From: an uncultured bacterium
Lineage (GTDB): Bacteria > Omnitrophota > Gorgyraeia > Gorgyraeales > Gorgyraeaceae
Direction: 5' to 3'
Assembly: GCA_937884195.1 (NCBI GenBank)
Contig: CALGDN010000140.1
Coordinates: 1 to 26,720 of the forward strand
DNA length: 26,720 nt
Shown: in pieces, positions 1 through 5,096 of the stretch
Layout: every line of letters begins with the position of its first letter
How positions within the stretch are numbered: position 1 is the stretch's first letter
Made by a program: the position numbers and the translations under genes
Notes under the pieces: generated by a model
The model's input: only the letters and a program-made list of their open reading frames with translations
Database searches by the model: none
Told to the model about the DNA's origin: nothing

Positions 1-1886
1 GCAAGTTTCTTCCCATCTCCTTCTGCCCATGCGGCAATCCTGTCCAATAAGTTTTCAGCTGGCTGGACAAAAGCGTTCAGATTATATAAGTCATACTTAT
101 TGACAAATGCATTTTTATTTTTTTTATCTTTGATCTTGCCCGATTTATCAGCATAATGGACATTCAGGGCCATATGATTGTCAACCATGGCATCCAGTAT
201 TTCTAACATCGTAGCCGCGCTGAGCGATTCCCCCGGATTAAATTCCTTGTCCTGTCTGGAGTACCCTTCGTAGGTATCGATAAGGCTGATACTATTCGGT
301 CCTGCTGTCCGTAAAGCTAAAAGCATAACCCATAACTCCGCAAAATCATTAAAGTTTTCAGTGCTGTGCACTAAGATAACGTTCTCGCCTTTTAAATTGT
401 CCGGGACCTTGACCTTCCATGTCAGGGGATTTTCACCTGGCTTTTCGATTATGACTCTTTCAGACTCAGCTTTAATAGAATCCGCCGCTTCCCTGGCATC
501 TGACTCTAATCGTCTGTGTTCATACAATACCTTCTTGATGAAGTGAGGGCCCTTCTTCTTTTTTATGGCCTTTAAAGGGATGGCACTGGATTCGGTATTA
601 TTGTAAAATAGCCGGTCACAGTAAAAACGCAATAAACTATCCAACCCGCTTTTAACGTCATGGACCTTATCTAAAACAAGATCGATCTTTTTCGCACCAT
701 TCCTTTTTAATGTGCCTAACAATAGAATTATTTTTACTAAATCCTCAGGCGAATTGAGAGTAGAAACCACTCTCAAGGATGCCCCGTTGACAAGATCGGG
801 ATTCAGGATCCTTAAATATAGTTCTCCGTCAGGGAAATGTGATGTCTTTAATCGTATCGCCCCCTTGTCACCCTCTACCGAAATCTTAGCATAAAGCGAG
901 TTCATTTTATTTAAAAGATTTTTAAGGTCTGTTATTTTCTCCTCTAGATAGCCCCCAAAGTAATCTAAATCTTCATTATTAATAGCGTGCCAGGGGAGTT
1001 CCTCGTTTTCTCCGTTATAAAAGCTGGTTAAATAATCACTGAGATTTTCTCCGTTCAAGAATTTATCGGATATCTCTTCTATGGTTTCAGGCATATAGTC
1101 AGCAAAAAGAGGATACAGATAGATATAGGATTCAAGAAACCTTTTCCACTCTTTCCTGGAGTCTCCCAGGTCGCCCATTGTTGATTCAGCGTTCTTAAAC
1201 CCGTCTTTTATAAGGCCTTTTGACCATTCAATTATTTCCGCCGGAGAAAGTGCAAACCTTTCCACGGAATCTTTCCCGTATATTGTAACTCCTGTACCCA
1301 GCCTCAATAAACTAAGGTTCTCCCTTAATTTTGTTCTAGTCTTAAAATCCTCCTCCCCTTTTATATTTACATCTACATGAGGTAAATCACTACTTAAACT
1401 CCATACTTCTCCCCCGAAACTCAACCTACCCTTAACAATGATAAGCATATCTATATCATGCGACCTGTCTTTTTCAGAATACCACAACGAGTTTCCGAAG
1501 ATAAAGATTGTACAACCTTCTATATCCTCGTCGCTTAATTCAATGTGTCCTTCCTCCCGTAATTTTTTAAGCTTGTCTTTTACTAGCTGGGGCAAGTTTC
1601 TGTCTCTTAGAAGATACTCGAGTCTTTTGCGCAGGATCCCCCTGGATTTTTTATTATCTTTGAGGTGGCTCCAGAGATAGCTATTCGATTTATCCAGCTC
1701 CGAAATAATGTCTTCCGGGGTGCGTTCAGGATTTTGTAATTTATTCCATTCCCTGAATGTCTTGCTTGTAGCCAAAGGAGGTCTAAGCGTAGGATTGCTA
1801 CCGGAGAGACAAAACGCCACTTTCTGGCCCTGGCATAAAAATAGTATTAAGAATACTAAAGCTAAAGCTTTTTTAAAGTTTATCAT
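1..1886 (-). CDS. Large multidomain protein, 3'-truncated by the window edge (>=628 aa): signal peptide + nucleotidyltransferase-like domain + two ribose-phosphate pyrophosphokinase (PRPP synthetase) N-terminal domains
   Basis: Not in the ORF track (no stop inside the window). Manual translation from ATG 1886 is open to base 1: MINFKKALALVFLILFLCQGQKVAFCLSGSNPTLRPP...TIFIFGNSLWYSEKDRSHDIDMLIIV...HVDVNI...GVTIYGKD...SHFPDGELYLRIL...LLLGTLKRNGAKKIDLVL...ELWVMLLALRTAGPNSISLIDTYEGYSRQDKEFNPGESLSA. Domains assigned by motif recognition. Confidence 0.85.
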   Translation of the reverse strand, partial: MINFKKALALVFLILFLCQGQKVAFCLSGSNPTLRPPLATSKTFREWNKLQNPERTPEDIISELDKSNSYLWSHLKDNKKSRGILRKRLEYLLRDRNLPQLVKDKLKKLREEGHIELSDEDIEGCTIFIFGNSLWYSEKDRSHDIDMLIIVKGRLSFGGEVWSLSSDLPHVDVNIKGEEDFKTRTKLRENLSLLRLGTGVTIYGKDSVERFALSPAEIIEWSKGLIKDGFKNAESTMGDLGDSRKEWKRFLESYIYLYPLFADYMPETIEEISDKFLNGENLSDYLTSFYNGENEELPWHAINNEDLDYFGGYLEEKITDLKNLLNKMNSLYAKISVEGDKGAIRLKTSHFPDGELYLRILNPDLVNGASLRVVSTLNSPEDLVKIILLLGTLKRNGAKKIDLVLDKVHDVKSGLDSLLRFYCDRLFYNNTESSAIPLKAIKKKKGPHFIKKVLYEHRRLESDAREAADSIKAESERVIIEKPGENPLTWKVKVPDNLKGENVILVHSTENFNDFAELWVMLLALRTAGPNSISLIDTYEGYSRQDKEFNPGESLSAATMLEILDAMVDNHMALNVHYADKSGKIKDKKNKNAFVNKYDLYNLNAFVQPAENLLDRIAAWAEGDGKKL

Positions 1887-1959: not shown

Positions 1960-1988
1960 ATTATAGCATATTAATGCAGTTATGACAA
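1960..1988 (-). promoter_or_regulatory. Sigma70-type promoter for the large ORF
   Basis: Minus strand TTGTCA (1988-1983), 17-nt spacer, TATAAT (1965-1960), with an extended -10 TG (TGcTATAAT). Confidence 0.7.
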
Positions 1989-2010
1989 TATTTGATATAG
2001 ATAGGTCACG

Positions 2011-3201
2011 TCAACTAAATTGTGTAAAATTCTTTATAGGGCGTTCCTTCCAGTTGTTATTTAAGTGAGTAAAGATAGCATATATGATCCTCTCACAGCT
2101 TTTAAGGTTAGTAAAGCAGGTAAATACCCTTGTCCTGCGCCTGACTTCTCTAAAAGATCTCTCTATGACATTGGTGGTACGTATCTTCTTCCAGTGATTC
2201 TTTGGGCATTGGAAGACATTCAGTAATTCCTCCAGATCTTTTTCAAGGCAGTGCACTGCACGAGGAGCTTTGTTGAACCATTTCTTCTTCCACGCCTTGA
2301 ATATAGATAAGGCCTGATATTTACTCTGGGCAAGGTATATATTCCTAGCGTCATTTATGCATTCATCCTGATAGATCTTTTTGAGATAATTTGATACGTT
2401 ACGGAGTTTGTGAGCCCAGCATCTCTGGAGAGGCACATGTGGATATACAATACCTAAGGCTGAGTGTAATCCTTTTGAGCCGTCTGTTGTTACGAGTTTA
2501 AGATTATCTCCTTTTAGGCCTCGGTTATAAAGATTATTAACTAGTCCTTCCCATGCGTCAAAGGATTCGCCTTTGGCCTGGGCGAAGGCTATTAAGCGGC
2601 GTTCTCCGAATACTGTTATGCCGTATGCTACGAGGATTTTTCTATTCCGGTATTTCCCGTTATATCGTATCTTAAGCGTTATAGCGTCTAGGAATAGATA
2701 CTGGTATTCGTCGAGTATAGGGGTTTTATGGAATTCTTTTACCTTTACATCTAATCTTCTGGTTATGCTTGATACTTTGGCGTGGGATACTTTTGTATCT
2801 AGTAGTTTGGATATTGCATCCCCAACTCTCCTTGTAGATACGCCTGCCAAGAATATATCCTGGATTAAATCTTCTACGATGTCTTCATAACGATGATAGC
2901 GTTTAAAAGCCCTGGTCCTGAACCCGGATGAACGCAACCTCAGAACCTTTATGTCATTTACTAATCCGAATTGAGTTACAAGGCTGCGTGTGTAGTGTCC
3001 GTTTCTGTAAAGCTCTTCAGTGTCTTTTTGTTCTTTCTCTTGTTCTATATAGAGTTCCAGGTCTGTTTTTACCGTAGATTCCATGAGTTCTTTTAAGAGG
3101 CTGCGCATATGAAGCCTTGTGTCTTGCCAAAAATCTTTATTTACTTCCTGCCACCATTCCTGTAAAATCTTACCTTGAGGCAGTAATCTGACGTTTTCCA
3201 T
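2011..3201 (-). CDS. IS256-family (Mutator-type DDE) transposase, 396 aa
   Basis: Motifs YRNGHYTRSL, GVSTRRV, YLFLDA, TDGSKGL, PLQRCWAHKLRN, IRTTNVIERSFREVRRR. SD AAGGAG upstream. Stop codon lies within the right IR. Confidence 0.95.
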   Translation of the reverse strand: MENVRLLPQGKILQEWWQEVNKDFWQDTRLHMRSLLKELMESTVKTDLELYIEQEKEQKDTEELYRNGHYTRSLVTQFGLVNDIKVLRLRSSGFRTRAFKRYHRYEDIVEDLIQDIFLAGVSTRRVGDAISKLLDTKVSHAKVSSITRRLDVKVKEFHKTPILDEYQYLFLDAITLKIRYNGKYRNRKILVAYGITVFGERRLIAFAQAKGESFDAWEGLVNNLYNRGLKGDNLKLVTTDGSKGLHSALGIVYPHVPLQRCWAHKLRNVSNYLKKIYQDECINDARNIYLAQSKYQALSIFKAWKKKWFNKAPRAVHCLEKDLEELLNVFQCPKNHWKKIRTTNVIERSFREVRRRTRVFTCFTNLKSCERIIYAIFTHLNNNWKERPIKNFTQFS

Positions 3202-3281
3202 AGGACGTACTCCTTTCCTTTTAAAAGCCTGGCACCATACCAGAGCTTTTGTTTTTGTATCCTAAAGGAAGGATACGTCCT
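3202..3281 (-). promoter_or_regulatory. Stem-loop in the transposase leader covering the RBS
   Basis: AGGACGTA(3202-3209)/TACGTCCT(3274-3281) plus an adjacent TCCTT/AAGGA pairing that includes the SD. Inner stem AAAAGC-CTGG/CCAG-GCTTTT. Confidence 0.55.
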
Positions 3282-3387
3282 TTTTATTTAATTTTCAATA
3301 AGAAATTACACAGTATATTTTACGTTACCTATAGATAGGTCTCCTTCTACAGACGTCCTGCAAGGAAATTTTAACTAGGTAGGTATA

Positions 3388-3723
3388 TCAGTAATTTCTG
3401 CGGGCGGCGTAGGTGAAGTGGGAGAAGTAGTTTCGCCATGAGGCTTCGGTAGACATGAATTGGTTTGGTCCGAAAAAGTAATCTACGATGGCTTCTCTCA
3501 TGCGGGCTATTTCTTTGAAACGGGCAAGGCTTCCGGGGTTTGATAGAGTCAGGTCTATCAACTCAAGGGCTCGTTCAAAAGACCTCCGGCTATAATCGGG
3601 GTTATTCCTCCTTTGCCAGTTAAGGGCGCGTTCAACCTCGCTTCCAATATTAGCCATCTGCTCAAGGAAAGATAGTCTTCTCCAGCCCCCTGCTGCCAGG
3701 GTCCTATGCTGATATTTCATCAT
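3388..3723 (-). CDS. Conserved hypothetical protein (partner of the upstream DUF5674 gene)
   Basis: 111 aa, WxxLSFLEQMANIGSEVERAL motif. Start overlaps the stop of the upstream gene (translational coupling). Confidence 0.8.
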   Translation of the reverse strand: MMKYQHRTLAAGGWRRLSFLEQMANIGSEVERALNWQRRNNPDYSRRSFERALELIDLTLSNPGSLARFKEIARMREAIVDYFFGPNQFMSTEASWRNYFSHFTYAARRNY

Positions 3724-4058
3724 TTAATCCTTTTTGCGGCAATCTCGATGATCTTCCTGCGCACTTCTTCATTTTCTATCCCGCGGCTTCTATTGCCCTG
3801 AGAAGGGCGCATATTGATCATAGCATCAAATTCAATAAAGTCATTACCCTGTATTCCCGGGTAAAAATTTATACCCCAAAGGTTTTTCTGTTTTGAACCA
3901 TCTTTCAAGAGCAGCGCCTCTAAATCAGAATGCAGCTCAGCATCAACTGCTATAAACTCCCTATCAACATCAACAACTGCCTTTACCAAATCCCCAAAGG
4001 TATCTGCGGCCATTTGCTTAAGTTCGTCGAGTGATAACGTTTCTGTTATTATTTTCAT
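3720..4058 (-). CDS. DUF5674-family protein
   Basis: VKAVVDV...AVDAELHSDLEALLL.DGSKQKNLWGINFYP...IEFDAMINMRPSQGNRSR. Family recognised from memory. Confidence 0.75.
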   Translation of the reverse strand: MKIITETLSLDELKQMAADTFGDLVKAVVDVDREFIAVDAELHSDLEALLLKDGSKQKNLWGINFYPGIQGNDFIEFDAMINMRPSQGNRSRGIENEEVRRKIIEIAAKRIK

Positions 4059-4065
4059 AGTATCG

Positions 4066-4094
4066 ATTATACCTCAATAAAAAACTCCCTGCAA
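4066..4094 (-). promoter_or_regulatory. Sigma70-type promoter at the pfkB 3' end giving a probable leaderless DUF5674 mRNA
   Basis: TTGCAG (4094-4089), N17, TATAAT (4071-4066). ATG is only 7 nt downstream and there is no SD. Confidence 0.5.
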
Positions 4095-5096
4095 GCACTT
4101 TGCTTCGAGCAATCCCTTGAGGAAGGTTTTTACTTGTTTTAGGTTTTTTAGCCCCTGACTTGCGCCTGATTTGGTGCAGATTATGGCGGACAATGCCGAT
4201 GCAAAGACCATGGCAGGCCCTATATTGTCAAATACCCGTCTCTTCCCTGCCTTAACTATCTTATAAAGCAGGCCTGCTGTATAGGCGTCTCCTGCACCTA
4301 TTGTGTCGGCTATTTTGACTTTAAATGCAGGTATTTTGATGAGATTGCTTCGCTTCGCTCGCAATGATAGAGGCCTTGGGTACAATGACTCGTTGAGATA
4401 TACTGAACCCTTTGAGCCTAACGTTAAAATAATCTCGCATCTGGATAGTTTCCTGAGCTTTTTCAGGCCTTTTTCGGGATCTTTCAGGCCGGTCAGAAAC
4501 TCCAGATCAACCTCGCTTATCTTGAGCAGATCGACTAATTTTACAAGCCTTAAGACCCTGCCCCTGGCTGCTCTTTTATCCTTTATAGCACAAGGCCTGA
4601 TGTTTGGGTCAAACGATATGAATACATGCCTTTTTTTGAGGAATTTAACGTATTTTAAGGCCTCAGGCGAGGTATCTTTTTGATATGAAAAGCTGGAGCC
4701 GAAATGAAGGATCTTAGTGTGCCTTAAAAGGTTTTTTGGGGCGTCCTTAAAACATACTATGGCGCTCCTTGAAGTGTTTTTATAAAATGTATACCCGGAG
4801 TTTCCCGAAGGGTCTATATTTGCTATTGCAATGGGGGTACGTATATCCGGGTCCAGGATAATGCCTTTTGTATTTACCCTGCATGAAGCGAGAAAATGTA
4901 CGGCAAGGTCCCCCAGGGTGTCCTTGCCGATCCTTGAAACCATGGCTGTTTTTAGCCCTAGTTTAGCAGCTATTACAGCAGAGTTTGTTGTAGAGCCTCC
5001 TACAGAGGCTAAAAAACGAGGGCTGTTTTTATCGGTGCCTTTTTCCTGTATAAGGTCTACCGAGGTCCCGCCTAAAAAAAGTATGTCTAATGGCAT
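4074..5096 (-). CDS. PfkB-family carbohydrate kinase (fructokinase-like)
   Basis: GGSTTNSAV, GKDTLG, SFDPNIRP, KISEVDL, DTIGAGDAYTAG anion-hole motif. Contains a short repeat-derived insertion at about 4341-4367. Confidence 0.92.
   Translation of the reverse strand: MPLDILFLGGTSVDLIQEKGTDKNSPRFLASVGGSTTNSAVIAAKLGLKTAMVSRIGKDTLGDLAVHFLASCRVNTKGIILDPDIRTPIAIANIDPSGNSGYTFYKNTSRSAIVCFKDAPKNLLRHTKILHFGSSFSYQKDTSPEALKYVKFLKKRHVFISFDPNIRPCAIKDKRAARGRVLRLVKLVDLLKISEVDLEFLTGLKDPEKGLKKLRKLSRCEIILTLGSKGSVYLNESLYPRPLSLRAKRSNLIKIPAFKVKIADTIGAGDAYTAGLLYKIVKAGKRRVFDNIGPAMVFASALSAIICTKSGASQGLKNLKQVKTFLKGLLEAKCLQGVFY
4341..4367. repeat. Palindromic-repeat remnant (GAGATTGCTTCGCTTCGCTCGCAATGA) in frame inside pfkB
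   Basis: ATTGC...GCAAT arms around the TTCGCTTCGCTC core. Reads SLRAKRSNL on the coding strand, within a loop longer than in typical PfkB proteins. Confidence 0.55.

What the first reader, a model, noticed from the sequence alone, without database searches (positions are those of the whole stretch)
1..1886. Hidden giant ORF: signal peptide + nucleotidyltransferase + tandem PRPP-synthetase N-domains
Seen: an uninterrupted minus-strand frame from ATG 1886 to the window edge that the ORF track missed, with its own near-consensus promoter. It starts with a hydrophobic signal-like segment. It has a Pol-beta/MNT-type motif FGN-x11-DID (1499-1449), a third Asp (HVDV, ~1372) and GVTIYGKD (~1292-1269). 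Two PRPP-synthetase N-terminal repeats follow: a degenerate one with FPDGE but no YxRQD (~860-690), and one with YEGYSRQDKEFNPGE but no FxDGE (~440-150). Known: PRPP synthetases are cytoplasmic ~290-320-aa enzymes, and the RQDKxFNPGE...VD...N.H pattern resembles the archaeal class III type. Inference: an exported or membrane-tethered protein joining a nucleotidyltransferase to a duplicated PRS domain, with the two catalytic motif sets split between copies, is an architecture I do not recognise. It may be a new nucleotide-modifying enzyme or a polymorphic multi-enzyme effector.
Basis: partly seen in the sequence, partly recalled or inferred. Interest (0 to 1): 0.78.

Follow-up and report, generated by a model that had tools for sequence, protein, structure and literature searches.

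The report
Exported nucleotidyltransferase fused to single-chain PRPP synthetase
The flagged frame is a real gene, cut by the contig end, from a probable Omnitrophota bacterium; it joins a signal-like leader, a diverged nucleotidyltransferase and a PRPP-synthetase-type enzyme carrying an extra half-domain, and this enzyme pair recurs inside the giant proteins of that phylum.

Summary
Observation confirmed. The minus-strand frame 3..1886 is open for 628 codons and is cut only because the window begins at a contig end.

Full-length relatives of about 850 aa exist in independent assemblies (75% and 45% identity), so this is not a chimera. They show the missing tail is the C-domain of a PRPP synthetase (PRS).

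Architecture:
- Signal-like leader.
- A module with a kanamycin-nucleotidyltransferase-like Pol-beta fold (AF2 pLDDT 88.6) that matches no Pfam model above threshold.
- A truncated PRS N-domain, N'.
- A complete class-III-like PRS (pLDDT 87.4, TM 0.78 to 3MBI).

Across the family N' keeps only the FPDxE "flag" hairpin. The full N-domain has lost that hairpin but keeps RQD, His, the PP-loop, KxR and the ribose-5-phosphate loop. In canonical PRS the flag completes the partner subunit's active site. I therefore infer, without showing it, a single-chain pseudo-dimer.

Both modules are rare in Omnitrophota (5 and 15 of 401 genomes). They lie mostly inside giant ORFs of up to 44,145 aa, usually adjacent to each other. 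The genome has a normal PRS elsewhere.

This scan has already noted PRS cassettes in Omnitrophota giant proteins on other DNA. The verdict is a new variant of a known kind. Substrates and export are untested.

The parts
3..1886 (-). Coding frame for residues 1-628 of a protein of about 850 aa. It is cut at its 3' end by the contig end.
   Evidence: It is colinear with the full-length P0002 (75% identity over residues 1-625).
1809..1886 (-). Leader, aa 1-26: MINFKK, a 12-residue hydrophobic core, then an AFC|LS small-residue site. It is either a Sec-type signal peptide or a signal anchor.
   Evidence: Hydropathy. The leader is conserved in relatives with three different architectures. This is a rule-based reading only.
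1758..1787 (-). Conserved post-leader motif LRPPLATSKT.
   Evidence: Leader alignment of 10 family members.
918..1799 (-). Pol-beta-superfamily nucleotidyltransferase-like module, aa 30-323, made of an NTase core plus a helical domain. FGNS is at 1488-1499 and DIDM at 1446-1457.
   Evidence: AF2 pLDDT 88.6. Foldseek top hits are ANT(4')/kanamycin NTase, probability 0.90-0.98. G131, D144 and D146 are conserved. Pfam hits are sub-threshold only.
552..902 (-). N': a truncated, degenerate PRS N-domain, aa 329-445. It keeps the flag hairpin FPDGE (822-836) and has no RQD loop.
132..551 (-). Complete PRS N-domain, aa 446-585. YEGYSRQDK is at 228-272 and NVHY at 153-164. The flag position is degenerate (KPGENPLTW, 417-443).
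3..131 (-). Linker and start of the PRS C-domain, aa 586-628. The rest, about 220 aa carrying the PP-loop, KxR and R5P loop, lies off the contig.
   Evidence: Alignment to P0002 and to 3lpn. The remainder was not found elsewhere in the assembly.
1960..1988 (-). Sigma-70-like promoter match TTGTCA-17-TATAAT with TG, lying just outside the IS end.
1996..3337 (-). IS256/Mutator-family insertion element (transposase at 2011-3201) separating the gene from its conserved upstream neighbours.
   Evidence: Pfam Transposase_mut 1.9e-82. 32-nt terminal inverted repeats. Metagenome contigs show other flanks at about 2004 and 3329.
4074..5096 (-). PfkB-family sugar kinase, found as the upstream neighbour of the family in two genomes.
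   Evidence: 57% identical to the PfkB gene directly upstream of the homologue in L002.

Best explanation
SHOWN
- The frame is the first three quarters of a gene for an Omnitrophota-type modular protein of about 850 aa.
- Its order is: N-terminal leader, a diverged Pol-beta-fold nucleotidyltransferase resembling kanamycin NTase/ANT(4'), a truncated PRS N-domain (N'), then a complete class-III-like PRPP synthetase (N plus C domains).
- The catalytic inventory is conserved but divided. N' keeps only the F-P-D-x-E flag hairpin. The full enzyme has lost that hairpin and keeps everything else.
- The NTase-like and PRS modules occur next to each other, in either order, in giant proteins.

INFERRED
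- In canonical PRS the flag hairpin of one subunit completes the ATP site of the opposing subunit. N' is therefore a fused stump of the partner subunit that supplies the flag in cis.
- This would yield a single-chain pseudo-dimer with one composite active site. Such a unit could work as a portable cassette without forming the usual dimer, tetramer or hexamer.
- It most likely transfers diphosphate from ATP to ribose 5-phosphate or a close analogue.
- The adjoining NTase acts on the same nucleotide or ribose-phosphate substrate stream.
- The leader directs the protein out of the cytoplasm, N-in and C-out. That places it, like the giant proteins that carry the same cassette, at the cell surface or in a partner cell.
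For: Gene and architecture
- Frame and truncation.
- The same architecture appears in independent assemblies: P0002 at 75% identity, P0003 and P0004 at 45%.

PRS identity
- Pfam 3.4e-16.
- Best NCBIfam model NF002095, 5.8e-25.
- Best PDB sequence hit is M. jannaschii 1u9y.
- AF2 pLDDT 87.4, pTM 0.88 for N'-N-C as one body.
- All 50 listed Foldseek hits are PRPP synthetases (one a PRS-associated protein), with TMt up to 0.78.

N' is a PRS N-domain repeat
- hhalign 95.7%, E 1e-8.
- TIGR01251 hit at 2.2e-5.

Divided motifs, conserved across the family
- N' has F20/21, P21/21, D21/21 and E21/21, and no RQD.
- The flag position in N reads K-x-x-x-N-P-L-x-W.
- YxGY[SA]RQDK is present in 24/24 and the His in 24/24.
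- PDxG, K..R and DDE.S.G.T are each present in 23/23.
- The same pattern holds in copies embedded in giant proteins.

Flag acts in trans

NTase
- AF2 pLDDT 88.6.
- Foldseek hits to ANT(4')/KNTase, HalB and AadA.
- The G..S-x10-DxD motif is conserved.
- Sub-threshold hits all fall in the NTP_transf clan.
- An atlas lead points the same way.

Cassette adjacency
- Among 19 proteins retrieved with the NTase part alone, 12 also carry the PRS module.
- In 11 of these it directly abuts the NTase module; in P0030 it lies about 270 residues away.
- G122 shows the same adjacency inside a 44,145-aa frame.

Paralogue, not the housekeeping enzyme
- A canonical PRS with FSEGE and RQD together lies on contig C34.
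Against: - No coordinates were available, so the position of N' relative to the N-C active site was not inspected. The pseudo-dimer is an inference from motif logic plus a high pTM.
- ATP docking gave no verdict and placed ATP away from the canonical site.
- TIGR01251 and NF002095 scores are far below their curated cut-offs.
- An ATP- and R5P-using enzyme has no obvious substrates outside the cytoplasm.
- The leader was judged only by rules.
- Neighbouring sugar-phosphate genes (PfkB; PGM, PGI and 6PGL) suggest ordinary cytoplasmic metabolism.
- The NTase third carboxylate is not conserved.
- The window copy lacks its C-domain, so its own integrity is unknown.
Confidence: 0.58

Rival explanations
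1. A cytoplasm-facing, membrane-anchored salvage enzyme. On this reading the hydrophobic N-terminus is an uncleaved anchor, and the protein works with the adjacent PfkB sugar kinase (ribose to R5P to PRPP) as a second, specialised PRPP source. The NTase-like module would be a regulatory or nucleotide-binding domain.
For: - A PfkB kinase is the upstream neighbour in two genomes at 57% identity.
- A distant family member sits after PGM, PGI and a 6-phosphogluconolactonase-type gene.
- The chemistry needs ATP.
- The 2026 Omnitrophota preprint predicts 46% of long proteins to be TM-only, an architecture it reads as placing the bulk on the cytoplasmic face.
Against: - The two lysines precede the 12-residue hydrophobic core and small residues follow it, a pattern typical of N-in/C-out and of cleavage.
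- The genome already has a canonical PRS.
- Gene neighbourhoods differ among relatives.
- The family is rare, found in 15 of 401 genomes, so it is not core metabolism.
Confidence: 0.22
2. A non-catalytic or regulatory pseudoenzyme scaffold. On this reading the PRS-like and NTase-like folds bind nucleotides but do not turn over, as in the eukaryotic PRPS-associated proteins.
For: - Curated PRS HMM cut-offs are not reached.
- The third NTase carboxylate is variable.
- PRS pseudoenzymes are frequent in evolution.
- Some giant-embedded copies are clearly degenerate, for example P0019, P0030 and P0046.
Against: - In the clade holding the window protein, every canonical PRS catalytic element is invariant: RQDK, His, PDxG, K..R and DDE.S.G.T. 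The flag in N' is invariant too.
- The two NTase metal-binding Asp residues are conserved.
Confidence: 0.12
3. An artefact: an assembly chimera or a read-through of two or three separate genes.
For: - The contig is from a fragmented, low-depth metagenome bin of 254 contigs, with word depth of about 2-4 in the runs found.
- An IS element lies next door.
Against: - The same order of modules in one frame is present in at least four independent assemblies from Logan, ENA, JGI and NCBI.
- The same order is present inside giant ORFs of reference genomes.
- There are no stops or frame breaks over 628 codons.
Confidence: 0.02

Closest known systems
Class III (archaeal-type) PRPP synthetase, e.g. M. 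jannaschii 1U9Y/1U9Z and T. volcanium 3MBI/3LPN
   Same: - Two-domain PRTase-like fold, with TMt 0.76-0.78.
- RQDKxFNPGE flexible loop, catalytic His, PDxG PP-loop, KxR loop and DD..S.G.T ribose-5-phosphate loop.
- Best sequence and HMM matches.
   Different: - It is preceded in the same chain by a truncated extra N-domain.
- The flag motif is absent from the catalytic N-domain and present only in the extra one.
- It has an N-terminal leader and is fused to other enzyme modules.
- Curated HMM cut-offs are not reached.
- It is a paralogue beside a normal class-I-like PRS.
Kanamycin nucleotidyltransferase / ANT(4') (1KNY, 4EBK, 6P01), Pol-beta superfamily
   Same: - Two-part build: an NTase core carrying G-x-S ... 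D-x-D/E, followed by a helical domain.
- Best Foldseek matches, probability 0.90-0.98.
   Different: - 15-17% identity and TM only 0.2-0.3.
- Extra N-terminal helices.
- No Pfam family reaches threshold.
- No link to antibiotic resistance is suggested.
- It is always found as a module of larger Omnitrophota proteins.
Omnitrophota giant multi-enzyme proteins ('Archaeovorin-type', West-Roberts et al. 2023, bioRxiv 10.1101/2023.11.21.568195; long-protein catalogue, bioRxiv 10.64898/2026.06.07.730766)
   Same: - It shares both enzyme modules, and their adjacency, with proteins or frames of 1,700 to 44,145 aa.
- N-terminal signal-like leader.
- Diverged 'metabolic' enzyme domains strung together, with partner modules swapped between close relatives.
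   Different: - Only about 850 aa with two enzyme modules and no internal TM helices.
- Neither paper mentions PRS, PRPP or nucleotidyltransferase domains.
PRPS-associated proteins and PRS pseudoenzymes (e.g. PAP39, 2C4K)
   Same: A catalytically incomplete PRS-derived unit that accompanies an active PRS unit.
   Different: - Here the incomplete unit is a fused fragment of about 115 aa, not a separate full-length subunit.
- It retains exactly the element that acts in trans.

Membership tests
PRPP synthetase (ribose-phosphate diphosphokinase, TIGR01251 / PF13793) | Two-domain type-I-PRTase-like PRS fold | tested here: met
   The AF2 model of P0002:325-849 has pLDDT 87.4. The top Foldseek hits are PRPP synthetases, E 1e-14, TMt 0.78.
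PRPP synthetase (ribose-phosphate diphosphokinase, TIGR01251 / PF13793) | Score above the curated whole-protein HMM cut-off | tested here: not met
   TIGR01251 scores 64.9 bits against a cut-off of 113. NF002095 scores 88 against 296. The query is truncated. Only the domain model PF13793 passes, at 59.6 against 25.
PRPP synthetase (ribose-phosphate diphosphokinase, TIGR01251 / PF13793) | Flag motif FxDGE and RQD flexible loop in the same N-domain | tested here: not met
   FPDxE occurs only in N' and RQD only in N. This holds across 21-24 family members and in giant-embedded copies. The genome's own canonical PRS has both.
PRPP synthetase (ribose-phosphate diphosphokinase, TIGR01251 / PF13793) | PP-loop, KxR catalytic loop and ribose-5-phosphate loop in the C-domain | tested here: inconclusive
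   These are invariant in full-length relatives (23/23). That part of the window gene lies off the contig and was not found in the assembly.
PRPP synthetase (ribose-phosphate diphosphokinase, TIGR01251 / PF13793) | Catalyses R5P + ATP -> PRPP + AMP | not testable with these tools
   An enzyme assay is needed.
Pol-beta-superfamily nucleotidyltransferase (Pfam clan NTP_transf; KNTase-like) | hG[GS]-x9-13-Dh[DE]h motif on the core sheet | tested here: met
   FGNS-x10-DIDM is present. Over 17 sequences G is invariant, the second Asp is invariant and the first Asp is at least 90% conserved.
Pol-beta-superfamily nucleotidyltransferase (Pfam clan NTP_transf; KNTase-like) | NTase alpha/beta core fold | tested here: met
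   pLDDT 88.6. Foldseek hits to ANT(4')/KNTase at E 5e-4 to 4e-3, probability 0.90-0.98, followed by HalB, AadA, DncV and cGAS. Global TM is low, 0.2-0.34.
Pol-beta-superfamily nucleotidyltransferase (Pfam clan NTP_transf; KNTase-like) | Match to a curated family HMM above threshold | tested here: not met
   Polbeta scores E 0.14. NTP_transf_2 matches 3 of 17 members, best E 0.0048. The PDB profile hit 9xbd scores E 0.38.
Pol-beta-superfamily nucleotidyltransferase (Pfam clan NTP_transf; KNTase-like) | Third catalytic carboxylate | tested here: inconclusive
   The Asp of HVDV is not conserved in the family alignment. From my own knowledge, not checked here, KNTase uses a Glu from its helical domain instead.
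Omnitrophota giant multi-enzyme ('Archaeovorin-type') proteins | Very long single polypeptide (thousands to tens of thousands of aa) | tested here: not met
   About 850 aa by comparison with P0002-P0004.
Omnitrophota giant multi-enzyme ('Archaeovorin-type') proteins | Shares homologous enzyme modules with the giants | tested here: met
   The NTase-like part hits proteins of 3,354-7,953 aa. PRS and NTase modules lie in frames of up to 44,145 aa and are adjacent there.
Sec-type signal peptide | n-region with positive charge, h-region of 7-15 residues, small residues at -3/-1 | tested here: inconclusive
   KK, a 12-residue hydrophobic core and A-x-C|L fit the rules. Relatives have V/A-x-A followed by X-P. 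No predictor and no experiment were available.

The most novel reading that the evidence does not exclude
The N'-N-C unit is a previously unrecognised solution for making an obligately oligomeric enzyme portable. The trans-acting flag hairpin of the partner subunit is fused in cis, giving a monomeric PRPP-synthetase-type diphosphokinase that can be inserted anywhere in a polypeptide. Together with its NTase partner it would form an exported two-step nucleotide or ribose-phosphate-modifying effector that Omnitrophota deliver to a host or prey cell. The ~850-aa proteins would then be the first experimentally tractable miniatures of the giant proteins.
Probability: 0.3. Interest if true: 0.75.

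Novelty: new variant of a known kind. Interest (0 to 1): 0.55.

Why it matters
The function of the giant Omnitrophota proteins is an open question. They are too large to express, and their 'metabolic' domains are predicted to lie outside the cytoplasm.

This gene family offers the same NTase-PRS cassette in a soluble-sized protein of 560-850 aa. Its leader is conserved and its partner modules vary: NTase-like, methyltransferase, RelA/SpoT-like, or none. Activity, topology and substrate could therefore be tested directly.

The complementary loss of motifs between N' and N is a clear, falsifiable example of a quaternary-structure requirement being internalised by partial gene duplication. It would also extend the known diversity of PRS enzymes. 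A 2026 pan-domain PRPS survey does not mention tandem, fused or Omnitrophota forms.

Tried and rejected
- ATP docking with complex prediction gave no verdict: score 0.57 against a best control of 0.51, with the site away from the canonical pocket. I discarded it.
- The missing C-terminal ~220 aa were sought in the rest of the assembly with P0002:615-849 and not found. The weak TIGR01251 hits on C121 and C227 were not matched by P0002.
- A leader HMM run against all six-frame ORFs of the genome found no other protein with this leader. It is family-specific, not a genome-wide sorting signal.
- PADLOC gave no defence-system match.
- Laying reads showed only low-depth fragments. It gave no extension of the contig and no RNA evidence, and was useful only for the IS boundaries.
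- Model coordinates are not exposed, so the N'-to-active-site geometry could not be measured.
- Neither giant-protein paper nor the PRPS evolution preprint describes this cassette.
- I considered that the NTase-like module might be a RelA/SpoT-type synthetase, as in the relative P0016. I rejected this for the window protein because there was no RelA_SpoT hit at E<=1 and the best folds are KNTase-like.
- I considered a lipoprotein signal. The residue before the Cys is Phe, which does not fit a lipobox. This is a rule-based judgement.
Full report
**1. The observation**

The minus strand is open from the window's first bases to 1898, with no stop. From the ATG at 1886, the start shared with relatives, it encodes 628 residues (P0001).

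The window is a whole contig (G000:C140) of a 1.27-Mb, 254-contig, 81%-complete bin. The frame is therefore truncated by the assembly and not by biology.

- FGNS at 1488-1499
- DIDM at 1446-1457
- HVDV at 1368-1379
- GVTIYGKD at 1269-1292
- FPDGE at 822-836
- YEGYSRQDKEFNPGE at 228-272

A promoter-like site, TTGTCA-17-TATAAT with an extended -10 TG, lies at 1988-1960.

**2. It is a real gene family, not a chimera**

A search of 5.8 billion proteins found full-length relatives with the same order of parts in one chain:
- P0002, 849 aa, 75% identity, 100% coverage
- P0003 and P0004, 841 and 848 aa, 44-45% identity

These come from independent assemblies. NCBI-named members are 'ribose-phosphate pyrophosphokinase-like domain-containing protein [Candidatus Omnitrophica/Omnitrophota]'.

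The relatives show that the missing tail of about 220 aa is the PRS C-domain. I could not find this tail elsewhere in the assembly. The source appears to be a marine metagenome in which the organism has very low depth, which explains the fragmentation.

**3. The PRS part**

Sequence evidence:
- Pfam Pribosyltran_N, 3.4e-16, two stretches.
- Best NCBIfam model NF002095, 5.8e-25, far below its cut-off.
- The best solved relative is the class III enzyme of M. jannaschii (1u9y). The Sulfolobus and Thermoplasma enzymes follow, alongside B. subtilis 1dkr in the P0002 search.

Structural evidence:
- An AF2 model of P0002:325-849, built with 24 family sequences, has pLDDT 87.4 and pTM 0.88.
- All 50 listed Foldseek matches are PRPP synthetases (one a PRS-associated protein), up to TMt 0.78 and E 1e-14.

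The unit has three parts:
- N' is about 115 aa and lacks the first strand-helix of the domain.
- N is a complete N-domain.
- C is a complete C-domain.

N' is homologous to N: hhalign gives 95.7% probability and E 1e-8, and TIGR01251 hits it independently at 2.2e-5.

**4. The motif split is conserved**

In 21 sequences N' has F(20) / P(21) / D(21) / G(16) / E(21). It has nothing resembling RQD, and instead carries its own conserved N-G-L-D-x-L-L-R-x-x-C-D.

In N the position that aligns to B. subtilis FSDGE reads K-P-x-x-N-P-L-x-W. The other catalytic elements are kept:

| Element | Conservation |
|---|---|
| Y-x-G-Y-[SA]-R-Q-D-K | 24/24 |
| His of NVHY | 24/24 |
| PDxG | 23/23 |
| K..R | 23/23 |
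| DDE.S.G.T | 23/23 |

The same division holds for copies embedded in giant proteins. A divergent subgroup carries RQH, as in the Thermoplasma enzyme.

The genome's own housekeeping PRS on contig C34 scores 404 bits against TIGR01251. It has the flag (FSEGE) and RQD together in one N-domain. The window gene is therefore a specialised paralogue.

**5. The mechanistic inference**

A chain that carries a flag-only stump in front of a flag-less but otherwise complete enzyme is what one would expect if the stump replaces the partner subunit. The result would be a single-chain pseudo-dimer with one composite active site.

This would explain three things:
- why N' could lose its flexible loop;
- why N could lose its flag;
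- how an enzyme that normally needs dimers, tetramers or hexamers can sit inside polypeptides of tens of thousands of residues.

The high pTM says the three parts form one confident body. ATP docking was uninformative.

**6. The N-terminal module**

Residues 28-330 retrieve only 19 representatives among 1.84 billion proteins. Most of these are segments of proteins of 3,354-7,953 aa.

An AF2 model built with 17 sequences has pLDDT 88.6. Its best PDB folds are aminoglycoside 4'-nucleotidyltransferases and kanamycin NTase (4ebk, 6p01, 1kny; E 5e-4 to 4e-3; probability 0.90-0.98), followed by HalB, AadA, DncV, cGAS and CCA-adding enzymes. Global TM is low, 0.2-0.34.

The family alignment conserves G-x-S ...

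Curated HMMs give only sub-threshold hits, and the nucleotidyltransferase ones among them (NTP_transf_2, Polbeta, DNA_pol_B_palm, PAP_NTPase, and PDB 9xbd) all belong to the NTase clan. A language-model look-up pointed to NTP_transf_2 clusters.

I conclude that this is a diverged, unnamed Pol-beta-fold family with intact metal-binding residues. Its acceptor is unknown.

**7. The cassette and its setting**

Local HMMs of the two modules show them side by side:
- NTase then PRS in P0017, P0020, P0021 and P0022, as in the window.
- PRS then NTase in P0018, P0019, P0023, P0028 and P0031.
- In P0030 the two modules are separated.

Those proteins were retrieved with the NTase part alone.

Among 401 sampled genomes of the phylum:
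- The NTase-like module was found in 5, in frames of 1,303, 8,610, 13,992 and 44,145 aa besides the window.
- The PRS unit was found in 15, in frames of 1,979-44,145 aa and in a few small genes of 496-570 aa.

Giants carrying the cassette also hold GNAT, guanylate kinase, phosphoglucomutase, trehalose-synthase, methyltransferase and other enzyme-like domains.

In a tree of PRS units (quick search, SH-aLRT support only) the window protein sits in a well-supported clade. That clade also holds relatives whose slot between leader and PRS unit contains a HEAT-plus-methyltransferase module or nothing. Another NTase-bearing protein (P0003) lies outside it. A further relative has a sub-threshold RelA/SpoT-like module. 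The partner module is therefore exchangeable, while the PRS unit, and the leader where the N-terminus is complete, are constant.

**8. Leader and location**

The leader has MINFKK, a 12-residue hydrophobic core, a small-residue site and a conserved LRPP motif. It is conserved across the three architectures and is the only strongly hydrophobic segment.

By the usual rules it is a Sec signal peptide or an N-in/C-out anchor. This was not tested with a predictor. No other protein of this genome shares it.

Published work on the giants predicts signal peptides or TM helices in 94% of them and debates whether their enzyme domains face outward.

**9. Neighbourhood**

- An IS256/Mutator-family element (about 1996-3337) and a pair of small genes (3388-4058) separate the gene from a PfkB kinase (4074-5096).
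- The orthologue of that kinase, 57% identical, lies directly upstream of the family member in L002.
- Other relatives have different neighbours: PGM/PGI/6PGL; HEAT, NTP_transf_5 and Wzy; or a pilin-like gene.

This keeps alive the rival reading of a cytoplasm-facing sugar-phosphate enzyme.

**10. Comparison and novelty**

The PRS unit works like a class III PRPP synthetase. It fails two membership features, the curated cut-offs and the presence of flag and RQD in one domain, so I do not file it as an ordinary PRS.

The N-module has the fold and motif of a KNTase-like NTase but matches no curated family.

The protein is a small relative of the Omnitrophota giant multi-enzyme proteins and is not itself a giant.

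Earlier notes of this scan had already found PRS-like cassettes inside Omnitrophota giants on other DNA, and databases name the relatives generically. Three things are new here:
- the free-standing leader-bearing form;
- the N' stump with the conserved motif division, and its structural rationale;
- the recurrent NTase-PRS adjacency.

I found none of these in the papers searched.

Noticed in passing
window 1996-3337: An IS256/Mutator-family insertion element with 32-nt imperfect terminal inverted repeats. Metagenome contigs carry variants of it (11-19 differences) with other flanking sequence breaking at about 2004 and 3329, so it appears to be mobile in the community.
   Followed up: partly
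window 3388-4058 (minus strand): Two overlapping small genes: a DUF5674 protein (3720-4058, 2e-35) and a 111-aa protein with no Pfam match (3388-3723). They lie between the PfkB kinase and the IS and are absent from the syntenic locus L002.
   Followed up: no
L026:5700-6000: Upstream of the leaderless family member P0043 the frame stays open. It encodes a hydrophobic stretch and a repeated NPVHLRG.PDCHLRGG peptide motif. The true start, and whether a leader exists there, are unclear.
   Followed up: no
L013 (G009:C1, inside a 42,020-aa frame): The PRS unit in this giant protein is bracketed by hydrophobic TM-like segments on both sides. Its loop is degenerate (RKD in place of RQD), suggesting an inactive copy threaded between membrane passes.
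   Followed up: no
P0016 residues 1-83: A partial Omnitrophota protein pairs a sub-threshold RelA/SpoT-like synthetase (E 1.1e-4, 22.9 bits against a cut-off of 27) with the same PRS unit. This echoes earlier scan notes of RSH-PRS pairs in giants.
   Followed up: partly
L002:121-1872: Two PilZ genes and an M48 peptidase lie just upstream of the PfkB and PRS-like pair. West-Roberts et al. report pilZ genes next to giant genes.
   Followed up: no
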